DNA of 64,000 nucleotides, taken from positions 52,050,522-52,114,521 of the forward strand of contig NC_057718.1 in assembly GCF_004010195.1 (NCBI RefSeq). The letters are read 5' to 3'. Of the stretch, positions 1-49,026 are shown in pieces. The notes beneath the pieces are model-generated. The model was given only the letters and a program-made list of their open reading frames with translations, was not told the DNA's origin and did not search any database. The position numbers and the translations under genes are program-made. Positions within the stretch are counted from its first letter, which is position 1. The number at the start of each line of letters is the position of its first letter. The DNA comes from Chiloscyllium plagiosum. Taxonomy: Eukaryota.

Positions 1-160
1 TCCAAAGATGTGCAGGTTAGGTGAATTGGCCATGCTAAATTGCCCGTAGTGTTAGGTAAGGGGTAAATGTAGGGGTATGGGTGGGTTGTGCTTTGGCGGG
101 GCAGTGTGGACTTGTTGGGCCGAAGGGCCTGTTTCCACACTGTAAATAATCTAATCTAAT
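1..160 (+). mobile_element. HE1-like/V-SINE, 3' half (cut off by window start)
   Basis: V-domain tccaaagatgtgcaggttaggtgaattggccatgctaaattgccc, CR1-like tail gggccgaagggcctgtttccacactgta and (TCTAA)n end; same as full copies at 40202 and 52317. Confidence 0.85.
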
Positions 161-776
161 GCAGATGATGTTCTAGTTTTCTTGACAAATCCAGCAGTTT
201 CAGTGCCTTGCCTGATACAATGCATTCACGCGTTTGGCGCTTTTTCAGGGTATAAGATTAATTTTGCTAAATCAGAGGCAATGCCTATGGATGGTCTTAC
301 GAAAGAGTTGGCTCTTGAGAGTGACTATAGATTCCCATTGAGGTGGTCACAGGGGGGCTTTGTGTATTTGGGCATATTTATTACTCCAGTTCTGGATTGG
401 CTAATCAAAGCCAATTTTACTCAATTATTTGAAAAAATTAAACAAGATCTCCAAAGATGGGAGGCACTTCCAGTCTCATGGTTGGGTCGGATAGCGCTTA
501 TCAAGATGAATATTCTCCCTTGTTTGCTAAACCCTATACGGATGCTCCCCCTGATTTTCAATAAACAAACACTCAGGAGACTGAACAGTTGGTTCAGCTC
601 CTTTATCTGGCATCATAAACGGCCCCTCATTAAAATAGCCAAACTGCAGTTGCCTCACAGATTGGGGGGAGTAGACCTTCCGGACATTAAAAATTACCAA
701 TTAAGCTCGCTTTGGACCTACGTAAGTGATTGGGTTTGTGGGGACCCTCTTTCAATATGGCTAGATATCGAAGTCT

Positions 777-888
777 GCTGAAAATGTGTTGCTGGAATAG
801 CGCAGCAGGTCAGGCAGCATCCAGGGAACAGGAGAATCGACGTTTCGGGCATAAGCCCTCCTTGAAGAAGCTCTCTTCCTCCCTCTAC
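777..888 (-). mobile_element. PLE terminal-repeat fragment (family A) inserted in L1 with 16-bp TSD
   Basis: TSD ctagatatcgaagtct at 761-776 and 889-904; insert matches the arm of the 1925-2144 element. Confidence 0.85.
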
Positions 889-1924
889 CTAGATATCGAA
901 GTCTCCCAGGCAAGGTGCCCCCTTACCAGTTTGCTGTTTTTAGACAAGGTGAGGACAGTTAGGGAATATTGCCATAACCCAATAGTCATCAATACTGTTA
1001 AAGCATGGAGGGCAATTCGGCAGAGGGAAGGTAATATTGGCAAAACATCTTTGTTTACACCTTTAGTGGGTATGCCGAATTTTCAACCAGGTATGACAGA
1101 TTCAGGATTTAAACGTTGGGCAGCTAGGGGTATACCTTGCATGGGTGATTTATTTGAGGGAGATGTCATGATGTCCTTCGATCAGTTAATACGGAAGTAC
1201 AAGTTACCTAATAGAGACCTCTTTAGTTTTTTTCAAGTTAGGGATTTTATTCAAAAAAGGACCACACTTTTGACTGATCCCTACAAATCTGACATAGAAA
1301 GAGGGGTACTAAGGGCTAAGAGTACACTCTCTGTCAGTACTCTATATCACCAGTTGGGGGGTGCCACCTCAGATGAGTCTGATCGACTCTGCAAGATGTG
1401 GGAAAGAGAGCTGGGTGTTGAAGTTTCTTCAGAGGCATGGGAGGATATTTGGGAGAATGCAAGGAAGATATCAATTTGCAATAGGACCCATGCTTTACAG
1501 TTGAAGATTCTCCACAGGGTCCACTTAGCCCCAGACCATATGTCAAAATTTAAACCAGGGGTATCTTCAGCATTTCCCAAGTGCAAGGTCTGTACGGATA
1601 CTCTTACCCATTGTCTTTGGTCTTGCTGACAGCCTTCAAACACATTGGAACGCTGTGGTGGGTGCAATGGAGAGGATTTTAGGTGTAGGGGTGGAGAAGG
1701 ACCCTATTTCGCTCCTTTTTGGGCCTACCCATTGTATTTCCTGCAGACTCGCATAAGGCAAAACTTTTCAATATTCTTACATTCTGTGCAAGGAAGAATA
1801 TCTTGCTAGGTTGGATATCAGAAATCCCCCCAGGCCTGTCGGGTTGGCGGAAGATTGTTATGGAGCATATTTCCCTGGATTTTCTCACAAATATGGTACA
1901 CCACAAAACTGAGAATTTTTACAA

Positions 1925-2144
1925 CTGGAAATGTGTTGCTGGAAAAGCGCAGCAGGTCAGGCAGCATCCAGGGAACAGGAGAATCGACGTTTCGGGCATA
2001 AGCCCTTCTTCAGGAATCCTGAAGAAGGGCTTATGCCCGAAACGTCGATTCTCCTGTTCCCTGGATGCTGCCTGACCTGCTGCGCTTTTCCAGCAACACA
2101 GTTCCAGCTCTGATCTCCAGCATCTGCAGACCTCACTTTCTCCT
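1925..2144 (+). mobile_element. Palindromic PLE-derived element (family A) with 91-bp arms and 16-bp TSD
   Basis: Arms 1925-2015 and 2017-2107 are reverse complements with one mismatch; tail ctctgatctccagcatctgcagacctcactttctcct; TSD ctgagaatttttacaa at 1909-1924 and 2145-2160. Confidence 0.9.
2014..2051 (+). ncRNA. Minimal type I hammerhead ribozyme motif (mirror copy on - strand at ~1981-2018)
   Basis: GAAUC-CUGAAGA-A-GGGC(UUAU)GCCC-GAAAC-GUC^-GAUUC: stem I GAAUC/GAUUC, conserved core boxes, stem II, palindromic ACGU stem III, GUC cleavage triplet. Activity not testable from sequence. Confidence 0.75.
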
Positions 2145-3907: not shown

Positions 3908-4625
3908 TAGTTGTGGGTATGTTCGCTGCAATGAAGTTGATTTGCAGATGTTTCATCCCTGTCTAGGTGACATACTCAGTGCTTTGGAGCTTCCTATGAA
4001 GTGCTGCTGTATTGTGTCTTCTGGAGTTAAAAATCACACAACACCACGTTATAGTCCAACAGGTTTAATTGGAAGCACTAGCTTTAGCCTTTGGAGTGTC
4101 GCTCCTTCATTATACATTGAACAATACCTTGATTGTCTGTTGAGTCTTTCATCTGTTCGAATACCCTGATAGTTTCACTTCTTTCATGTGTAAATCACAA
4201 AATGTTTTTTTAAAAGTTGCATTCTCCAGTTAACTGTAACAATTGGTGATAGCTAGACAATATGTTGAAGGTGTTAGCCCTCTGTGTTCTCTGTCTATGC
4301 CATAATGCTTAGATTGATTCTAATCTAAAAAGTGAGATAACAGAGTTTTACATGTGTTGTCCCCTTGAATTTGTGGTCCTTGTCATTTGTGTTTCCATTC
4401 TGTCCTACAGTGATGGCCTGTTTGATTATTGTTCTCTGTTTTTGAAATTAACAAACTTTGGCATGCGATTTCTTGTCTGTACCTATGTAGTCGGTTGTGT
4501 GTGTCTGTAATCATAACCTGGATCATCCTGAGATCACTTTGTCTGACTGTTTCTCTGGCATGTGGGTTGTTGATTGGTGGTCTATACCTGACACAGGATG
4601 GTAGCATTTGATTCCTTCGGCATCC
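3908..4625 (-). mobile_element. Nested PLE remnants: family C (Poseidon-like) terminal repeat and GIY-YIG remnant with a family B 3' end inserted at ~4025-4355
   Basis: 3910-4020 resembles 38670-38770; 4025-4110 matches 30575-30657; 4110-4355 is the reverse complement of ~30980-31215. Confidence 0.7.
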
Positions 4626-6495: not shown

Positions 6496-6699
6496 CAGTT
6501 ACCTGTGCCATGGAGATATGATCAGTTTGTTCATTCACCCTGAGCCTCCATATTCATCCATATAAAGAGGCTGCTAGAAGCTCAACTCTGTTGGACAGCT
6601 ACAAGAGATGAAGCTCCATTACTTTTAACTTCTCAACCCCCATACATTACTCTCTCATGGTCAAACTATCCCGTTCCTGATCATGGACAAAATCAGACA

Positions 6700-6868
6700 G
6701 GGAGAAAGTGAGGGCTGCAGAGGCTGGAGATCAGAGCTGAAAAATGTGTTGCTGGAAAAGCACAGCAGGTCAGGCAGCATCGAAGGAGCAGGAGAATCGA
6801 CGTTTCGGGCATAAGCCCTTCTTCAGGATTCCTGAAGAAGGGTTTATGCCCGAAACGTCGATTCTCCT
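6700..6868 (-). mobile_element. Palindromic PLE-derived element (family A), one arm truncated, 13-bp TSD
   Basis: Fold-back centre cagga-t-tcctg at 6824-6834; TSD acaaaatcagaca 6687-6699 / acaaagtcagaca 6869-6881 (one mismatch); hammerhead cores on both strands. Confidence 0.85.
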
Positions 6869-7924
6869 ACAAAGTCAGACAACCTTATCCAAAGGGGTGT
6901 GATTACCCCCGGACCAAAACCGTCCAGAAAACTTTCCTCATCACCAATATGTTACAATGTTTGCATTTCAGCTTCCAATTAAATGATTCAGAGTCAAAAT
7001 TTGTCCAGCTGCAGATACTTACTGCATGTGTATTTGTGTTGGATCACTGGATTTCCATGCGTCCCCACAGTCTGCAGCTGTCACCTGTATACCATCTTTA
7101 TAGTGTTTAATTAATGATTTTATTGATTTAATTTCAATTACTATCTTTAGTCCTGCATGTTTATATTATTTTCATTTCATAGCACTGTTAAATTATAGGT
7201 CCACCACACTCAGATAGTCTGGCACTGTCACAGTTACTGATACATATGGAGCTGTAGATTCAGATCATGATCCTACTTAAAACCTTAGTTCCACACTCGT
7301 GCCTTCATAATTACCAGGTTTTACATGAGAAACAGCAATCCCACTGAACACAGGAGGCCACACATTACCATAAACCCTATCATATGTAGTATCTGCCAGA
7401 GCCAAGCGGTAGGTGTGGATCAGGAATTTTATCAGGAAAGGTGTGATTGTCCACACAGATGTGCATCAATAGAGACTGCATATTACCTGTATTGCCAAAT
7501 GGGCTTTGAGAAGGAACAACAGGAAGCACACCCCATTATGACTGAGGCACGACAGATTATTTATTAGGATGAACCAAATGGTGAAACTGGGAACAGAGGA
7601 CAACCGTCAATCTCAAACCATCAAGAAGATCACCCAAGTCCAGTCAGTAAATCACAATTCTTCAAAGATTAAAGAAAACATATGGTAAGGAGAATACTGA
7701 AACATCCAGACCATCTAAATTTGTAAAGTCAAAGAGTTGGATAGGTTGTAGGAAATGCAAATATATAAACAAATGTATAACCATTAACCCATGAGTGAAA
7801 GAGAATGTAGGGTATGGCAGGGGTGAGATATGGTTTGTGGGTCTGAAAGGACTTGCAAAGATTTATCATTAATTCAGTGCAGTAAGCCTCATAACCTGTG
7901 ATGATATTGTGGGACTTGGCCAGG

Positions 7925-30539: not shown

Positions 30540-31369
30540 GATTTGGAGATGCCAGTGTTGGACTGGGGTGTACAAAGTTAAAAATCACACAACACCAGGT
30601 TATAGTCCAACAGGTTTAATTGGAAGCACACTTGCTTTCGGAGCTTCGCTCCTTCATCAGATGATAGTGGAGGGCTCAATCCTCCACACACACACACACA
30701 CACTGACACACATATACACGGATGCGCACACAGACACCCACATACACCCTTACAGACACACACACAAACACACTAACACACACAGACACACACAGACTTA
30801 AGACACTCTACACTCAATACACACACACATACACTTTCTCACACTCACGACCCCCAACCCAGACAGACAAAGACCCACATGCACACATATATTTTGTGGG
30901 GTGAATTTGTACTTGCAGTACTTTGCTCAAAAACTGCATGCATTCATGTAGAACTCTGATCTCAAAAACTGCATGAATTAATGTAAAACTCCGTTATCTC
31001 ACTTTTTAGATGAGAATCAATCCAAACATATGGCAAAGACAGAGAACACAGGGGGTTAACACCTTCGACATATTGTCTAGCTATCACCATTGATAACAGC
31101 TAACCTGAGAATGCAACTTTATAAAAAAGGTTTTGTGATTTACACATGAAAGAAGTGAAACAATCATAGCATTCAAACAGACGAAAGACTTAACAATCAA
31201 TTTTTCATGTATAATTTCAGTAACATCACACTGTAAATTTTTGCTATAAATTCTGTGTGTTAGGATTGAGCCCTCCACTATCACTTGACGAAGGAGCGTC
31301 GCTCCGAAAGCTAGTGTGCTTACAATTAAACCTGTTGGACTATAACCTGGTGATGTGTGATTTTTAACT
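30540..31369 (+). mobile_element. PLE 3' fragment (family B) with inverted terminal repeat at its 5' end, internal (CA)n-rich tract and 12-bp TSD
   Basis: 30575-30682 is the reverse complement of ~31262-31369; TSD ttgtctatacaa at 30528-30539 and 31370-31381; hammerhead-like cores at ~30629-30663 (-) and 31282-31316 (+). Confidence 0.85.
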
Positions 31370-31547
31370 TTGTCTATACAATATATTGTAGTAGTCAGTG
31401 AGTATAGAACTGAAACTATGAACAAGTCTAAAATATTACAGCAATGCAAATTTTGTTAACAAGGCTCAAGATATCTGTGTCAACTAAAATCTAGTCATTC
31501 CTGTGTGTGTTATGTGAGCTAACATATAGGGCAAGACTCAAATCATA

Positions 31548-33149: not shown

Positions 33150-35510
33150 AAGAACACTGGACTAGAATGTATAGAACATTGAATTGCCCAGTGCAGCACA
33201 ATGTTCCATAGCAGAATGTGGAGAAAACTCAGCCAGGGAACAATGCCAAGCCTGCCAATCAAGTCCCAGAAGTATCTGCAACGTCACAGCTACAGATCCC
33301 AATCCAATGATACATGTCTTCAATTTGCCACACCACATGGATATTATCAAAATTCTGGAAGCCTTTACTTTTTTCAAGTGATAAACCACACTCATTATGG
33401 ACAACATGCACTAAATTCCAAGATTGACACTGACACAAGTACAAATATCATCATGCAGGAGATGTACTTGGTTGACTGGTACATCATGCAGGAGATGTAC
33501 TTGGTTGACTGGTGTAGTGCTGGGAAAGCACAGCAGGTCAGGCAGCATCTGAGGAGCAAGAGAATTGACGTTTAAGGCATAAGCCCCTCATCAGGAATGA
33601 GGCTTGTGGGTCATGGCTGAAAGATAAATGGGAGGGGGTGGGGTTTGGGGGAAGGTAACTGAGAAAGCGATAGGTGGATGAAGGTGAGGGAGAGGTGGAT
33701 AGGTCAGAGGGGGGAGTGATCGACAAGTCCGAAGGGCAGTCCGAGTTGGAGACTTGGAACTGGGATAATGTGGGGGGAGGAGAAATGAAGAAGCTGTTGA
33801 AATCCACATCTATACCATATGGTTGCAGGGTCCCAAGGCAGAGTACAAGGTGTTCCTCTTCCTCCAGGCGTTGGGTGATAACGGTTTGGCAGTGGAAGAG
33901 GCCCAGGATCTGCATGTCCTTGAAGGGATGCGAGGTGGAGTTGAAGTGTTCAGCCACGGGGCATTGGGAGTGGTGGGTGTGAGTGTCCCAGAGATGTTCT
34001 CTGAAATGATCCACAAGGTGTCCTGTCTCCCCGATGTAGAGGAGACCACACCAAGTGGTCTCACTCTGATCTCCAGCATCTGCAGCCCTCACTTTCTCTC
34101 TTGGATGCAGTAGATGACATTGGTAGAGGTACAGGTAAATTTCTGACCGATGTGGAAGGATCCCTTGGGACCTTGGATGGAGGTGGGGCGAGTGGCGTGG
34201 GCGCAGGTTTTACACTTCCTGCAGTGACAGGGAAAGGTGCCAGGAGTGGGGTGTGGACTGGTGGGGGGTGTGGACCTGACGAGGGAGGCGTGGAGGGAAT
34301 GGTCTTTTTGGAACGCTGATAGGGGTTGGAACACAGGATAAATGTGGATTTCAACAGCTTCTTCATTTCCCCTCCCCCCACATTATCCCAGTCCCAAGCC
34401 TCCAACATGGCACCACCGTTCGAATCTATCCATTCACTCCCCCCTCTGACCTATCACCTTCTCCTTCACCTTCATCCACCTATCTCTTTCTCAGCTACCT
34501 TACCTCAAACCCAACCCCTCCCTTTTATCTCTCAGACCCGACCCACACGCCTCATTCCTGATGAAGGGCATGTGCCCGAAACATTGATTCTCCTGTATCT
34601 CGAATGCTGCCTGACCTGCTGTGCTTTTCCAGCACTTTACTCTCGACTCTGATCTCCAGCATCTGCAGCCCTCACTTTCTCTCTTGGTTGACTGGTACAT
34701 CTGGTACAATCCAGACAAGGTAAGCTAACTGTTAGATGCATTGGCATTATCCATCTTAAATATCAATATGAATTCTCAGGATGAACAATGAAAAGTTCTA
34801 CATTGTTGATTAAGCAGGACCTCAGTAATTGATTGATCATCATGCAATATCTATGTGTTATCATGATCCACAAGTTAAACACAAGTTGCAACCACAAAGA
34901 TTCCAGACTGAGATATCAAGACTATCCATCAATCTCAACAATCAAGAGAACCTTTCATTCTACGTGAGATTCTATCTGAACTGTTAGAAGTCAATCACGG
35001 ATATTTTCCATGTTCAAGACACAATTACATTCTGATGGCTGACTACATTACTAAATTAACTTCTCTGTGACAATTCAAATGTACCAAAAGTGCAACCAAC
35101 AATAACTCCATGTTCATTACATTTGGCGCTCCTCACAACTTGTTTGAGAAAAAGATACTCTGTTGTCATATCCAGCATAGATCATGTGATGTTGTAATGA
35201 ACAGTCGTCAAGTCTGACAAAGAAATAGGCAACACATCCAAACTGCATGCAGTCAACCATCCACCACACAATGATGGATCAAATACAGAAGAATGCCAGA
35301 TAACAACACATATCAACAAAAAATAATCACATTAATCTGTGACAGTGGACTGCATAGTAAAGCTACAAAGCTCTCTTTTCATAGGCAATTAAGGATTAGA
35401 TCTGGTCATGCCATAAAGTCCACCAAAGTGTTTTGTAAATGTATAGAAATAGTGTGCCTGTATGTATCCTTCTACATGATATCAAAAAAGGGTCCCATTC
35501 TTTAAAAGGA
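33150..35510 (+). mobile_element. Decayed Gypsy internal region (gag Cys-rich, protease, pol C-terminus) split by a PLE
   Basis: ECGENSAREQCQACQS (knuckle-like), KIDTDTSTNII (degenerate DTG protease) at ~33420, RIRSGHAIKSTKVF (TRSGR-like integrase tail) at ~35395. Confidence 0.55.
33514..34682. mobile_element. Rearranged PLE 3' region (family A, Neptune-like) with inverted termini and 14-bp TSD
   Basis: Minus strand PCHCRKCKTC...FTCTSTNVIYCI // CGLLYIGETG...FREH...VAEHFNS (Zn linker plus GIY-YIG); plus-strand copy of the 3' end at ~34335-34682; TSD cttggttgactggt 33500-33513 / 34683-34696. Confidence 0.9.
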
Positions 35511-38669: not shown

Positions 38670-38877
38670 TGTTGTGGTTCTGTTTGCCGAGCTGAGAATT
38701 TGTGTTGCAGACGTTTCGTCCCCTATCAAGGTGACATCCTCAGTGCTTGGGAGCCTCCTGTGAAGCACTTCTGTGATCTTTCCTCCGGCATTTGTAGTGG
38801 TTTGAATCTGCCGCTTCCGGTTGTCAGTTCCAGCTGTCCGTTGCAGTGGCCAGTATATTGGGTCCAGGTCGATGTGC
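38670..38877 (-). mobile_element. PLE 3' end (family C, Poseidon-like) nested in the Neptune ORF, 10-bp TSD
   Basis: TSD ttatcgatga 38660-38669 / 38878-38887; minus peptide KHIDLDPIYWPL. Confidence 0.85.
38707..38746 (-). ncRNA. Minimal hammerhead ribozyme motif (family C)
   Basis: GCA-CUGAGGA-U-GUCACC(UUGAUA)GGGGAC-GAAAC-GUC^-UGC: intact core, stem I GCA/UGC, stem II with one mismatch. Confidence 0.7.
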
Positions 38878-39607
38878 TTATCGATGAGGATGAGCACCTT
38901 GCCAAGACCTTTCCTACGCCTCCACTTCTCATCTTTAAACAACTACCAAACCTCAAACAGATTATTGTTTGCAGCAAAATGCCCAGCTTTCTGGACGACA
39001 TTGACCACAACACCGTACAACCCCATCATCACAGCCACTGTAAGACATTTCAAAGAATCGACACTGATACCACTATTATATGTGGGAACACCTCCCACCA
39101 ATTTATGCAGCAGGTACTCATGTGACTTGATCAACATTGTCTATCTCAAATGCTACAGTCAGTGATGCTCTGAGGCTTGGTACATTGCCGAGACCGAGCA
39201 GAGACTACGGCAATGGATGAACGGACACTGCACAATGATCACCAGACAGGACGGTTCCCTCCCAGCTGGGGAACATTTCAGCAGTCCGGGATATTCAGCC
39301 TCAGAACTCCGGGTGACCATCCTCCAAGGCGGATTTCAGGACAAGCAACAATGCAAAGTGGCCGAGCAGAGGCTGATAGCCAAGTTCAGTACCCAAGGGG
39401 ATGGCCTCAACTGGGACCTTGGGTTCATGTCACACTACAGTTGACCTCACTATGCGCATGCATGCACGCACACACACATACACATACACAAACACAATCT
39501 CAATCTCTCTCTCATACGCACACACATGCACCCCCCGCGCACACCCCCACGTACGCACCCTCTCACAGGCTTATACCCCATCACACTCATACACATGCTT
39601 GGCTAAG

Positions 39608-46665: not shown

Positions 46666-47143
46666 AATAGGAACAAATTACTGCAGACACTGGAATCTGT
46701 ATTGAAAATCACAAATGCTGGAGATCACAGTGAGCTAAATAGCATCCATGGAGAGAGAGCAAGCTAACATTTCAAGTCTAGATGACTTTTTATCAGAGCT
46801 GAAGTCAAGTCTGGAGGGGACAGTGTTTATGCTATAGTTTGGGGGGAGACGGAGTTAGTGGGTGTAGGGTGCTGATGGAGAAAATATGTTGATAGTTCAG
46901 ATTTACAGATCAGAATGCGTTTGATCTGATCACTTAATCTGAACTATCAACATCTTCTTTCCATCAGCACCCTGCACCAACTAACTCCACACTCTGCAAA
47001 CTATGGCATAAATGCTGTCCCCTCCACACTTCACTTCAGCTTTGATGAAGAGTCATCTTGACTTGAAAATGTTAGCTTGCTCTCTCTCCACGGATGCTGT
47101 CTGACCCATTGTGATCTCCAGCATTTGTTGTTTTCAGTACAAA
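46666..47143. mobile_element. Fold-back PLE-derived element (family D-like) with ~220-bp arms in CR1 ORF1, 7-bp TSD
   Basis: ~46698-46914 and ~46920-47141 are imperfect reverse complements; TSD tggagag 46659-46665 / 47144-47150; degenerate hammerhead in each arm (UUGAUGA-AGAGUC...GACUU-GAAAAUGUU). Confidence 0.85.
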
Positions 47144-48262
47144 TGGAGAGGTGGTTACACTGCAGAGTCAGAGTCCACAGGCAGGAAGAGAATGGGTGAA
47201 CACTAGGCAGATCAGGATGGCTAAGCAGGCAGTGAAAGGATCTCCTGTGGCTATTCCCCTGCAAAACAGGTATACCATTTTGGATACTGTTGAGGGGAAT
47301 AGTCTCTCAGAGGATAACAGCAGCAGCCAAATTCATGGCAATATGGTTGGCTCTGCTGCAGAGGGAGGGAGAAATAGCAAAGAAATGCTATAGTTACAGG
47401 AGATTTAATCATAAGGTGTACAGATAGGTGTTTCCGTGGCCGTAGACAAGAGTGCAGGATGGTGTATTGTCTCCATGGTGCTAATGTTCTGGATGTCTTG
47501 GAGCAGTTGCAGGACATGCTGGAGTGGGAGGGTGAACAGCCAGTGGTTGCATTACACGGTGGTACTAATAACAAAGGTAAAAAAAGGGATGAAGTCCTAA
47601 AAGCAGAACGTAGAGAATTAGGATGAAAGTTGAAACGTAGGACTCCAAAGGTAGTTATCTCAGGATTACTACCAGCTTCATGAGCTAGTCAGAATAGAAA
47701 CAGCAGGATTTATAGGATTGAACACGTGGCTGAAAAGATGGTGCTGGTGGGAAGGTTTCAGATTCATGGGGCATTGGAGAGGTGGGACCTGGATGAGTTA
47801 CACCTGGGCAGGACCAGGACTGATGTTCTTCGAGGTAGAGTGGGTGGGGAGGGTTTAAACTGGTGTGGCAGGGGGATGCGAACCAAAGGAATAGGGCAGT
47901 AGATGCAGAAATTGAGGGAGAGTAGAAACTAAGGCAAACATGAATAAGTACAAGTTCAGGCAGGGGAGGTGGTCTGAAATGCATGTGTGTCAATGCTAGA
48001 AGTATAATAGGCAAGATAGTTGAACTTAGCGCTTTGCTAAGTACTTGGAACATTATTGTGATAATGGAAACTTGGCTGAAAGAAGGACAGGTCTGCCAGA
48101 TGAATGTCCCAGGATTTAGATATTTCAGGTATGATAGAAGAGGATGTAAAAGGGGTGGGGGAGTTGTATTACTGGTAAAGGAACATTTCACAGCTGTACT
48201 GAGGGAGGATATAGCAGAGGACTCATGCAGCGAGGCAACTCAGGAATAGGAAAGATGAAATC

Positions 48263-49026
48263 ATGATACACCCCTCCAACTGTAACAAGGATAGAACCCC
48301 CCCCGGTGCTCACCTTCCACCCTACCAACCTTCGCACAAACCACATCATCCGAAGACATTTCCGTCACCTGCAAATGGACCCCACCACCAGGGATATATT
48401 TCCCTCCCCACCCATTTCCGCTTTCCGCAAAGATTGTTCCCTCTGTGACTACCTGGTCAGGTCCACGCCCCCCAACAACCCACCCTCCCTTCCTGGCACC
48501 CTCCCCTGCCACTGCAGGAATTGCAAAACCTGTGCCCCTACCTCCTCCTTCATCTCCATCAAAGTTTTGCCTGCACATCTGCCAATATCATTTATGGTAT
48601 CCGTTGCTCCCGATGCGGTCTCCTCAACATTGGGAAAACTGGACACCTCCTAGCAGAGGTCTTTAGGGAACATCTCCAGGACACCCGCACCAATCAACCA
48701 CACTGCCCTATGGCCCAACATTTCAACTCCCCTTCCCACTCTGCCGAGGACATGCAGGTCCTGGGCCTCCTCCACGGCTGCTCCCTCACCACCCGACCAT
48801 CCCCACCCCCATTCACCTTTATACTCTATGCTACTTTCTCCCCCCCCCCACCCCCCTCGCATTTATCTCTCCACTCTGCAGGCATCCTGCCTCTATTCCT
48901 GATGAAGGGCTTTTGCCCGAAATGTCGATTTTCCTGCTCCACGGTTGCTGCCTGAACTGCTGTGCTTTTCCAGCACCACTCTAATCTAGACTCTGGTTTA
49001 CAGCATCCGCAGTCCTTGTTTTTACT
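48263..49026 (+). mobile_element. PLE 3' fragment (family A-like, Neptune-type GIY-YIG) inserted in the CR1 endonuclease
   Basis: LTFHP...IIRRHF, PCHCRNCKTC, NIIYGIRCSRCGLLNIGKTG, AQHFNSPSHS; terminal repeat with ctgatgaagggcttttgcccgaaatgtcg at 48899-48927. Confidence 0.9.

What the first reader, a model, noticed from the sequence alone, without database searches (positions are those of the whole stretch)
1925..2144. Mobile palindromic hammerhead element: two independent insertions share one fold-back junction
Seen: a 220-bp insert with a 16-bp TSD is a near-perfect 91+1+91 hairpin with a complete hammerhead-like core on each strand. A second insert at 6700-6868 (opposite orientation, own TSD) folds back at the same nucleotide (cagga-a-tcctg versus cagga-t-tcctg). 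Both read CUGAAGA, whereas the ORF-linked copies at ~33590, 34558 and 48899 read CUGAUGA. The fold-back itself supplies a perfect 5-bp stem I (GAAUC/GAUUC). Known: PLEs carry minimal hammerheads in their terminal repeats and often have inverted 5' ends. Inference: the palindrome is either propagated as its own ORF-less retrozyme/SINE-like family by PLE RT-GIY-YIG in trans, or inversion is programmed just upstream of the ribozyme core.
Basis: partly seen in the sequence, partly recalled or inferred. Interest (0 to 1): 0.75.

Follow-up and report, generated by a model that had tools for sequence, protein, structure and literature searches.

The report
Twin-primed Penelope stubs meeting at cap
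This 220-base DNA palindrome is one of about 1,400 back-to-back stubs of a common Penelope-type jumping gene; each was likely built on the spot from two DNA copies that ran off the capped front end of the element's RNA and stuck to each other, so it is likely not a self-spreading ribozyme element but a record of how these elements copy themselves.

Summary
In detail: both inserts, their target-site duplications and the shared centre are there, and about 1,435 loci in this shark-type genome carry the same junction. The reading as a separate retrozyme/SINE is not supported. CUGAAGA arms are mostly non-palindromic (21,200 exact matches), one sits behind a GIY-YIG frame, CUGAUGA palindromes exist (196), and palindromic arms interleave with ordinary arms in a tree. 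Long arms end at ~128, most short arms at ~92; both are also 3' ends of ordinary copies and flank the known PLE 'tail'. Many copies begin at one A two bases before the hammerhead core, often after an extra G, the signature of a capped 5' end. The centre base is A in 26 and T in 26 of 53 loci; a second register splits 8:8. That fits two cDNAs, primed from both target nicks, annealing through an A·A mismatch; it does not fit one fold-back or one master. The hairpin sequesters the ribozyme (53 kcal/mol). The layout is published; this mechanism contradicts the published self-priming idea but is inferred from DNA only. The scan reached similar readings before, in this and other genomes.

The parts
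1909..1924 (.). left target-site duplication of insert 1 (16 bp)
   Evidence: identical to 2145-2160
1925..2015 (-). short arm (element positions 1-91, no tail); inferred cDNA primed at the inner RT start site
   Evidence: 90 of 91 complementary to 2017-2107; short arms end at 85-95 in 42 of 56 loci with a TSD
2016..2016 (.). centre base; inferred resolved A·A mismatch of two annealed cDNA ends
   Evidence: A in 26, T in 26, C in 1 of 53 genomic loci relative to the long arm
2017..2144 (+). long arm (element positions 1-128); inferred cDNA primed at the outer RT start site
   Evidence: long arms end at 122-131 in 56 of 56 loci with a TSD
2014..2051 (+). minimal type I hammerhead motif (stem I 5 bp, CUGAAGA, unpaired A, 4-bp stem II, GAAAC-GUC without loop III); predicted cut after 2046
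   Evidence: sequence and fold of the isolated motif; sequestered in the full insert
1981..2018 (-). mirror copy of the minimal hammerhead (stem I with a U·U mismatch)
2108..2144 (+). 37-nt PLE 'tail', present on one arm only
   Evidence: unpaired in the hairpin; matches the 30-40 bp tail between two RT start sites in PMC11167929
2145..2160 (.). right target-site duplication of insert 1
6687..6699 (.). left target-site duplication of insert 2 (13 bp, one mismatch)
6700..6828 (-). long arm of insert 2 with tail, 93% identical to the long arm of insert 1
6829..6829 (.). centre base of insert 2 (same register; A before the long arm when read on the minus strand)
6830..6868 (+). short arm of insert 2 (39 nt)
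6869..6881 (.). right target-site duplication of insert 2
777..888 (.). third two-armed insertion of the same young subfamily with a different junction: inverted arm (positions ~92 to ~7) joined to a ~25-nt piece from the start of the element's ORF; 16-bp TSD 761-776 / 889-904
33514..34682 (.). older (CTGATGA) two-armed copy with GIY-YIG remnants, tail-less arm at left, tailed arm at right, internal tail at 34064-34098; 14-bp TSD 33500-33513 / 34683-34696
48240..49016 (+). older 3' fragment of a related PLE: RT-thumb/linker motifs, CxxxxCxxC linker, GIY-YIG remnant, 3' UTR and arm (left boundary approximate)
   Evidence: translations; 63-70% identity to the GIY-YIG frame of CTGAAGA copies

Best explanation
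Each palindrome is a very short insertion of an ordinary endonuclease-bearing Penelope-like element (likely Neptune clade), likely assembled anew at its landing site from two cDNAs that were primed from the two nicked target strands and likely annealed to each other after both ran off the capped 5' end of the element's mRNA. Steps: (1, inferred) transcription starts at the A of TCA-TTCC, two bases before the arm, inside the pseudo-LTR; (2, shown in vitro for the anole PLE, inferred here) the GIY-YIG/RT protein nicks both strands ~15 bp apart and primes reverse transcription at two internal sites that flank the tail, here ~128 and ~92; (3, inferred from the extra G) each RT copies uncut RNA through the hammerhead to +1 and adds C opposite the cap, so both cDNAs end in GAATC; (4, inferred from the 50:50 centre) the two ends pair as GAATC/GAATC with a central A·A mismatch, each is extended on the other as second strand, and repair or replication fixes A or T at random. 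Other registers of the same two ends (2-nt AT overlap; 1-nt overlap) give the two other symmetric classes; when one cDNA stops early the junction is asymmetric. The product lacks the ORF sequence beyond the tail and buries its ribozyme in a hairpin, so it is likely dead on arrival.
For: Both outer ends are element 3' ends: long arm 122-131 in 56 of 56, short arm 85-95 in 42 of 56 loci with a TSD, and non-palindromic sense arms also end at ~91-99 or ~128 (loose ends at both places in independent runs). PMC11167929: the anole PLE protein cleaves and extends both strands, starts RT at two sites that bound the tail, uses uncut RNA, and needs ORF sequence beyond the start sites. Centre base 26 A: 26 T: 1 C of 53, mixed within each of four sequence subfamilies (11:10, 8:7, 5:2, 2:1), 5 A: 9 T: 1 G of 15 older CTGATGA loci, and 8 C: 8 G of 16 loci in the third register. 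The mix persists where the short arm is 68 nt or less (6 A, 8 T of 14, read), so it is not a read-polishing artefact of perfect palindromes. 5' hotspot: 19 of 50 arms in a sample chosen by the 3' end alone stop within -4..+2; in 12 of 18 loci with a downstream tandem arm, that arm starts right at ATTCC after unrelated break points in the ORF (by eye). Extra G: 6,170 matches have a non-native base before ATTCC; among the first 100 listed G 62, A 19, T 19 (hand count), and 46 of 76 after removing 24 palindromic rows, against 24% expected (p 2e-11); in L162 and L165 the G lies outside the TSD. An extra G from the mRNA cap is described at full-length L1 5' junctions (PMC11702581). The A sits in a YYANWYY initiator match (consensus recalled) and TTTATCT begins 31 nt upstream in 35 of 38 arms that carry it. 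Arms of one copy share subfamily marks (1.4 versus 4.5 differences to foreign arms, 0 of 10,000 permutations) and no position separates long from short arms as a class.
Against: No RNA evidence for the start site or the cap was obtained. Many of the extra Gs also fit microhomology with target or left arm (about 8 of 22 G loci looked untemplated by eye). The samples are the first loci listed on contig C1, not random draws. About 5 of 41 full-armed loci have arms that differ at subfamily positions, which needs two RNAs or later change. The RT of this exact subfamily was not read; RT identity rests on relatives at 71-84%. Some junctions carry short templated inserts (L117, L131, L138), so host end-joining may do part of the joining. 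Twin priming from one RNA versus two RNAs is not resolved.
Confidence: 0.68

Rival explanations
1. One cDNA snaps back on itself (or an RNA self-primes, as proposed for an antisense template in PMC3846280) and copies itself backwards to make the second arm.
For: Arms of one copy are near-identical. PMC3846280 reads junction palindromes as self-priming. Short templated inserts at some junctions show local re-priming.
Against: Snap-back of the long cDNA fixes the centre (T before the long arm), but A and T are equal and so are C and G in another register. It does not explain why the second arm ends at the independent 3' end ~92 next to a clean TSD, nor why either arm can be the one that reaches +1 in asymmetric junctions. 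An even AT/AT register without any loop holds ~760 loci.
Confidence: 0.14
2. The palindrome spreads as its own ORF-less retrozyme/SINE-like unit, copied in trans from palindromic masters that are transcribed from either side.
For: About 1,435 loci share one junction. A few loci have two tailed arms (L103, L117, L142) and could in principle be read from both sides. Non-autonomous PLE derivatives exist (bioRxiv 10.64898/2026.07.22.740005; PMC8557442).
Against: Needs separate masters for five subfamilies, three registers and two centre bases. Palindromic arms are not clustered in the tree and some are identical to native-context arms (weakly resolved). No arm-specific fixed differences. No tandem arrays, which define animal retrozymes. 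The units lack the ORF sequence that the anole RT needs beyond its start sites, and RT would have to melt a 91-bp hairpin (-192 kcal/mol).
Confidence: 0.07
3. Two cDNAs are joined as above, but the common stop is not a capped start: it is a strong RT stop or a nuclease/protein-protected RNA end at the hammerhead boundary, with non-templated C addition.
For: The stop coincides with the 5' edge of stem I; in D. virilis Penelope that edge is an intron end (PMC4209133). No start-site data here.
Against: An RT meets the 3' side of a stem first; the native bases before the A are TC, not a splice-acceptor AG, and the sequence upstream of truncated copies is heterogeneous; initiator match and G excess fit a cap. 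The predicted ribozyme cut lies ~30 nt downstream and is intact in these copies.
Confidence: 0.11

Closest known systems
EN+ Penelope-like element insertions with inverted 5' pLTR, junction palindrome and one-sided tail (Adineta vaga Pen2/Pen3, PMC3846280, passages; PMC8557442, passages)
   Same: Head-to-head inverted repeat, tail of 30-40 bp on one side only, TSD around the whole unit, palindromes at the junction, pLTR overlapping the start of the ORF.
   Different: Here the unit is reduced to the two ends only, occurs in thousands of copies, and has a nucleotide-exact hotspot. The published reading (self-priming on an antisense template) does not predict the 50:50 centre or the extra G.
Poseidon element of Anolis carolinensis, PAc (PMC11167929, parts 1-2 of 4 read)
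   Same: Two RT start sites bounding the tail; both target strands cut and extended; uncut RNA as template; hammerhead near the ORF start.
   Different: The paper leaves second-strand synthesis and 5' joining open in the parts read; this family likely belongs to Neptune (CxxxxCxxC linker), not Poseidon.
Minimal hammerheads of metazoan PLE pLTRs (PMC4209133, parts 1-2 of 4 read)
   Same: Short stem I, unpaired base between positions 9 and 10.1, G-C closing pair of stem II, palindromic stem III without loop; oppositely oriented motif pairs already noted.
   Different: Here the two motifs abut on opposite strands, so they cannot dimerise in one RNA and are buried in a hairpin.
L1 twin priming and cap-derived extra G (PMC11702581, passages)
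   Same: Second RT primed from the reciprocal target end, clean 12-18 bp TSD, microhomology at the inversion junction, extra G from the cap at full-length 5' ends.
   Different: In L1 the two cDNAs copy adjacent, non-overlapping parts of the RNA; here both copy the same stretch to its 5' end, which yields a near-perfect palindrome.
Animal non-LTR retrozymes (bioRxiv 10.64898/2026.07.22.740005, part 1 of 5 read)
   Same: ORF-less, hammerhead-bearing, derived from PLE pLTRs.
   Different: Retrozymes are head-to-tail arrays with same-sense ribozymes; these are head-to-head singletons with uncut, sequestered motifs.

Membership tests
EN+ Penelope-like element (parent family) | C-terminal GIY-YIG endonuclease upstream of the pLTR | tested here: met
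   L090, a CTGAAGA copy: PF01541 24.2 bits, above the 22.6 cut-off; window copies align to it
EN+ Penelope-like element (parent family) | PLE-type reverse transcriptase in the same element | tested here: inconclusive
   Six candidate full-length loci have N interiors; relatives at 71-84% identity in the EN region carry RT motifs and a weak RVT_1 hit
EN+ Penelope-like element (parent family) | pLTR at both ends, partial tandems, inverted 5' copy, one-sided tail, TSD | tested here: met
   L228, L229 have arm-ORF start-gap-arm; partial tandems; inverted arm in 20 of 30 loci; TSD in 56 of 70
Neptune clade | Zn-finger-like linker between RT and EN; placement in an RT tree | tested here: inconclusive
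   CxxxxCxxC seen in the window copy and in P0005; criterion from PMC8557442; no RT tree made
Minimal type I hammerhead | CUGANGA and GAAA boxes, stems I and II, NUH site, palindromic stem III | tested here: met
   no Rfam hammerhead hit at E<=1, as expected for a motif without loop III
Minimal type I hammerhead | self-cleavage | not testable with these tools
   within the insert, forcing stems I and II costs 53 kcal/mol
Non-LTR retrozyme | head-to-tail array with two or more same-sense hammerheads | tested here: not met
   palindromic loci are head-to-head singletons within one TSD
Independent SINE-like family | descent from palindromic masters: one clade, fixed junction and arm-specific marks | tested here: not met
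   interleaved tree, no arm-specific marks; three registers; mixed centre
Independent SINE-like family | existing Dfam/Repbase entry | not testable with these tools
   neither library is available here

The most novel reading that the evidence does not exclude
Penelope-like elements integrate by symmetric twin priming in which the two first-strand cDNAs serve as each other's second-strand templates; the cap-copied C gives them self-complementary ends, and thousands of 50:50 mismatch-resolved centres in this genome are the direct fossil of that intermediate, overturning the antisense self-priming model and mapping the element's transcription start from DNA alone.
Probability: 0.6. Interest if true: 0.62.

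Novelty: new member of a known kind. Interest (0 to 1): 0.4.

Why it matters
How PLEs make their inverted ends and complete second-strand synthesis is called undefined in PMC8557442 and left open in the parts of PMC11167929 that were read. The junction statistics here give a sharp, cheap test between the published self-priming idea and twin priming: a random centre base, three registers predictable from one cDNA end, and an extra G. With an active PLE protein now available in vitro, the prediction can be tested directly. The element itself is ordinary, and the ribozyme appears to play no part in forming the palindrome.

Tried and rejected
Rfam scan of the window: 7 matches at E<=1, none at gathering score; the miRNA hits only reflect the hairpin. 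Sequencing runs: no RNA holder listed on record; laying four runs on a native-context stretch gave 2,639 reads in one RNA run (93% running on into unlike sequence, i.e. from embedded genomic copies), 0 in the other, and no pile-up of molecule starts: no verdict on start site or expression. Pfam did not recognise the window's decayed GIY-YIG frames or the N-terminal ORF region; the N-terminal search found 3 shark proteins without informative names. Six loci fetched for a full ORF had N interiors. Rejected: ribozyme cleavage as the cause of the junction (cut site ~30 nt away and intact); splice acceptor at the junction (no AG); polishing artefact for the mixed centre (persists with short or diverged arms); CUGAAGA as a palindrome marker. 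PMC4245944 and PMC3681739 passages added nothing decisive. Literature searches found no paper that describes this unit, a cap-derived G or a mismatch-resolved centre in PLEs; subscription papers, Repbase and Dfam were not searchable, and supplements of PMC11167929 (not opened) may bear on insertion ends.

Full report
Observation. Insert 1 spans 1925-2144 between perfect 16-bp direct repeats; its arms are 91 nt with one mismatch around base 2016, followed by a 37-nt unpaired tail. Insert 2 spans 6700-6868 in the opposite orientation, with a 13-bp TSD carrying one mismatch, a 128-nt arm, the same centre and a 39-nt arm. Both carry CTGAAGA; three older window copies carry CTGATGA. The motif is a minimal type I hammerhead of the kind described in PMC4209133 (parts 1-2 of 4 read): no loop in stem III, so it needs a same-sense partner. 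Rfam gave no hammerhead match.

Genome census. The 28-nt junction has 1438 forward and 1433 reverse matches, about 1,435 loci, control 0. CTGAAGA arms without that junction give 21,200 exact matches, natively preceded by CCTCAT. The same junction with CTGATGA has 196 loci. Two more symmetric registers exist: a two-base centre, nearly always AT (~760 loci) and an AT-N-AT centre, nearly always C/G (~408 loci). These exact-match counts miss diverged copies.

Parent element. A CTGAAGA arm lies behind a GIY-YIG frame in L090 (PF01541 above cut-off); relatives are from carpet sharks and carry RT motifs, a CxxxxCxxC linker and GIY-YIG, which suggests the Neptune clade by the criterion in PMC8557442 (passages); no RT tree was made. 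About 991 copies continue past the tail into the start of a long ORF. Six candidate full-length loci were fetched; two show arm, ORF start and a terminal arm about 4 kb apart, but all have N interiors, so this subfamily's RT was not read.

Anatomy of the palindromes. I examined 70 loci: the 53 distinct CTGAAGA loci among the first 100 rows, 15 CTGATGA loci and the two window inserts. A TSD was found in 56 (41 of them 14-16 bp). In those 56 the long arm ends at 122-131; the short arm ends at 85-95 in 42, earlier in 13, and at 126 in one. Ordinary sense arms also end near 92 or 128, so both outer ends of a palindrome are element 3' ends. The 35-nt difference is the known one-sided tail, which PMC11167929 (parts 1-2 of 4) shows to lie between two RT start sites; that protein cuts and extends both target strands, uses uncut RNA and needs ORF sequence beyond the start sites.

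The centre base. Relative to the long arm it is A in 26, T in 26 and C in 1 of 53; A 5, T 9, G 1 of 15 older loci; mixed in each of four subfamilies, with six unassigned loci all T; and 8 C: 8 G in 16 loci of the third register. It is also mixed where the short arm is 68 nt or shorter (6 A, 8 T of 14), which argues against a polishing artefact. A snap-back of one cDNA or copying from one master would fix this base; annealing of two identical 3' ends with a central mismatch randomises it.

The 5' end. In 30 loci chosen only by their 3' end, 20 have an adjacent inverted arm, none has the one-base register, most junctions are asymmetric, and 19 of 50 arms stop within -4..+2; either arm can be the one that reaches the site. 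Of 30 loci chosen by ORF-start sequence, 18 have a downstream tandem arm, and 12 of these start at ATTCC after varied ORF break points (by eye). 6,170 matches have a non-native base before ATTCC; my hand count of the first 100 rows is G 62, A 19, T 19, or 46 G of 76 after dropping 24 palindromic rows, against 24% expected from window composition. In some loci the G lies outside the TSD, in others it forms microhomology. An extra G marks cap copying in full-length L1 (PMC11702581, passages). The A matches the initiator consensus (recalled) and a TTTATCT motif begins 31 nt upstream in 35 of 38 arms that have it, of 51 examined, many of them close relatives. RNA reads gave no verdict.

Not a separate family. 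In 41 loci with both arms of 80 nt or more, arms of one copy differ by 1.4 non-CpG sites against 4.5 between copies, and no site separates long from short arms. In a tree of 65 palindromic and 15 native-context arms the label needs 13 changes, as in shuffles (mean 13.9; 144 of 500 as low); the tree has only 128 columns, 4 strong branches, and the native set was biased to one subfamily. The insert folds as one hairpin of -192.0 kcal/mol; forcing hammerhead stems I and II gives -138.8.

Mechanism. Best: twin target priming at the two start sites, run-off at the capped +1, annealing of the two GAATC ends across an A·A mismatch, mutual extension (0.68). The run-off, the cap and the annealing are inferred from sequence statistics; two-strand priming and two start sites are shown only for the anole element. 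Rivals: snap-back or self-priming (0.14), a non-cap stop with the same joining (0.11), a self-propagating palindromic family (0.07). Against the best reading: no RNA data, non-random samples, about 5 of 41 loci with discordant arms, and short templated inserts that hint at host end-joining.

Relation to what is known. The layout, including junction palindromes, is described in PMC3846280 (passages), which reads it as self-priming on an antisense template, and in PMC8557442. Animal retrozymes (bioRxiv 10.64898/2026.07.22.740005, part 1 of 5) are head-to-tail arrays, a feature not met here. Seven literature searches found no account of the mixed centre or cap G in PLEs; subscription papers, Repbase and Dfam were out of reach. 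My reading was noted before the scan's earlier notes were opened; several reach the same capped, head-to-head reading in this and other genomes and are not independent support.

Verdict. Real feature, new member of a known kind, first reading partly supported. Interest 0.4: ordinary element, but a clean and testable record of an open step in PLE integration.

Noticed in passing
L176, L179, L186, L191, L192, L194, L197-L202: Partial tandems in which a piece of the ORF start is joined directly to an arm beginning at ATTCC: cDNA apparently jumps to a new template on reaching +1, a possible route to pseudo-LTR formation.
   Followed up: partly
L189, also L182/L183: A two-armed insertion in which both sides contain the 3' UTR starting near -190 joined to ORF-start sequence, suggesting an internally deleted template or a second 5' hotspot.
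   Followed up: no
window 777-888: A young two-armed insertion inside a LINE reading frame, whose right arm is a ~25-nt piece from ~45-70 nt beyond the tail, i.e. primed at a third, more distal site.
   Followed up: partly
window 155-1629: Fragment of a non-LTR retrotransposon ORF2 (weak RVT_1 match), interrupted by the 777-888 insertion.
   Followed up: no
native-context arms, 31 nt upstream of the inferred +1: TTTATCT sits where a TATA box would be in young and old subfamilies; its reverse complement is a GATA-type site (recalled).
   Followed up: partly
L117, L131, L138, L097: Junctions with 6-9 nt inserts copied from nearby arm sequence, resembling templated insertions of polymerase-theta end-joining (recalled).
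   Followed up: no
L174, L175, L224-L229: The element's ORF has a long Thr/Ala/Pro-rich low-complexity stretch after a conserved N-terminal block; database relatives are named 'mucin-2-like'.
   Followed up: no
window 46695-47144: Another long nested inverted repeat of unrelated sequence (arms 46695-46841 / 46997-47144 and a central hairpin 46887-46952).
   Followed up: no
window 4025-4304 and 30572-31373: A second family with inverted termini (112-nt arms, 93% complementary) and a partial open frame at 38670-39125 of similar style; possibly another PLE family.
   Followed up: no
arm position 23 in 41 loci: G-to-A change in 7 short arms versus 1 long arm at a CpG site; probably chance after many comparisons.
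   Followed up: no
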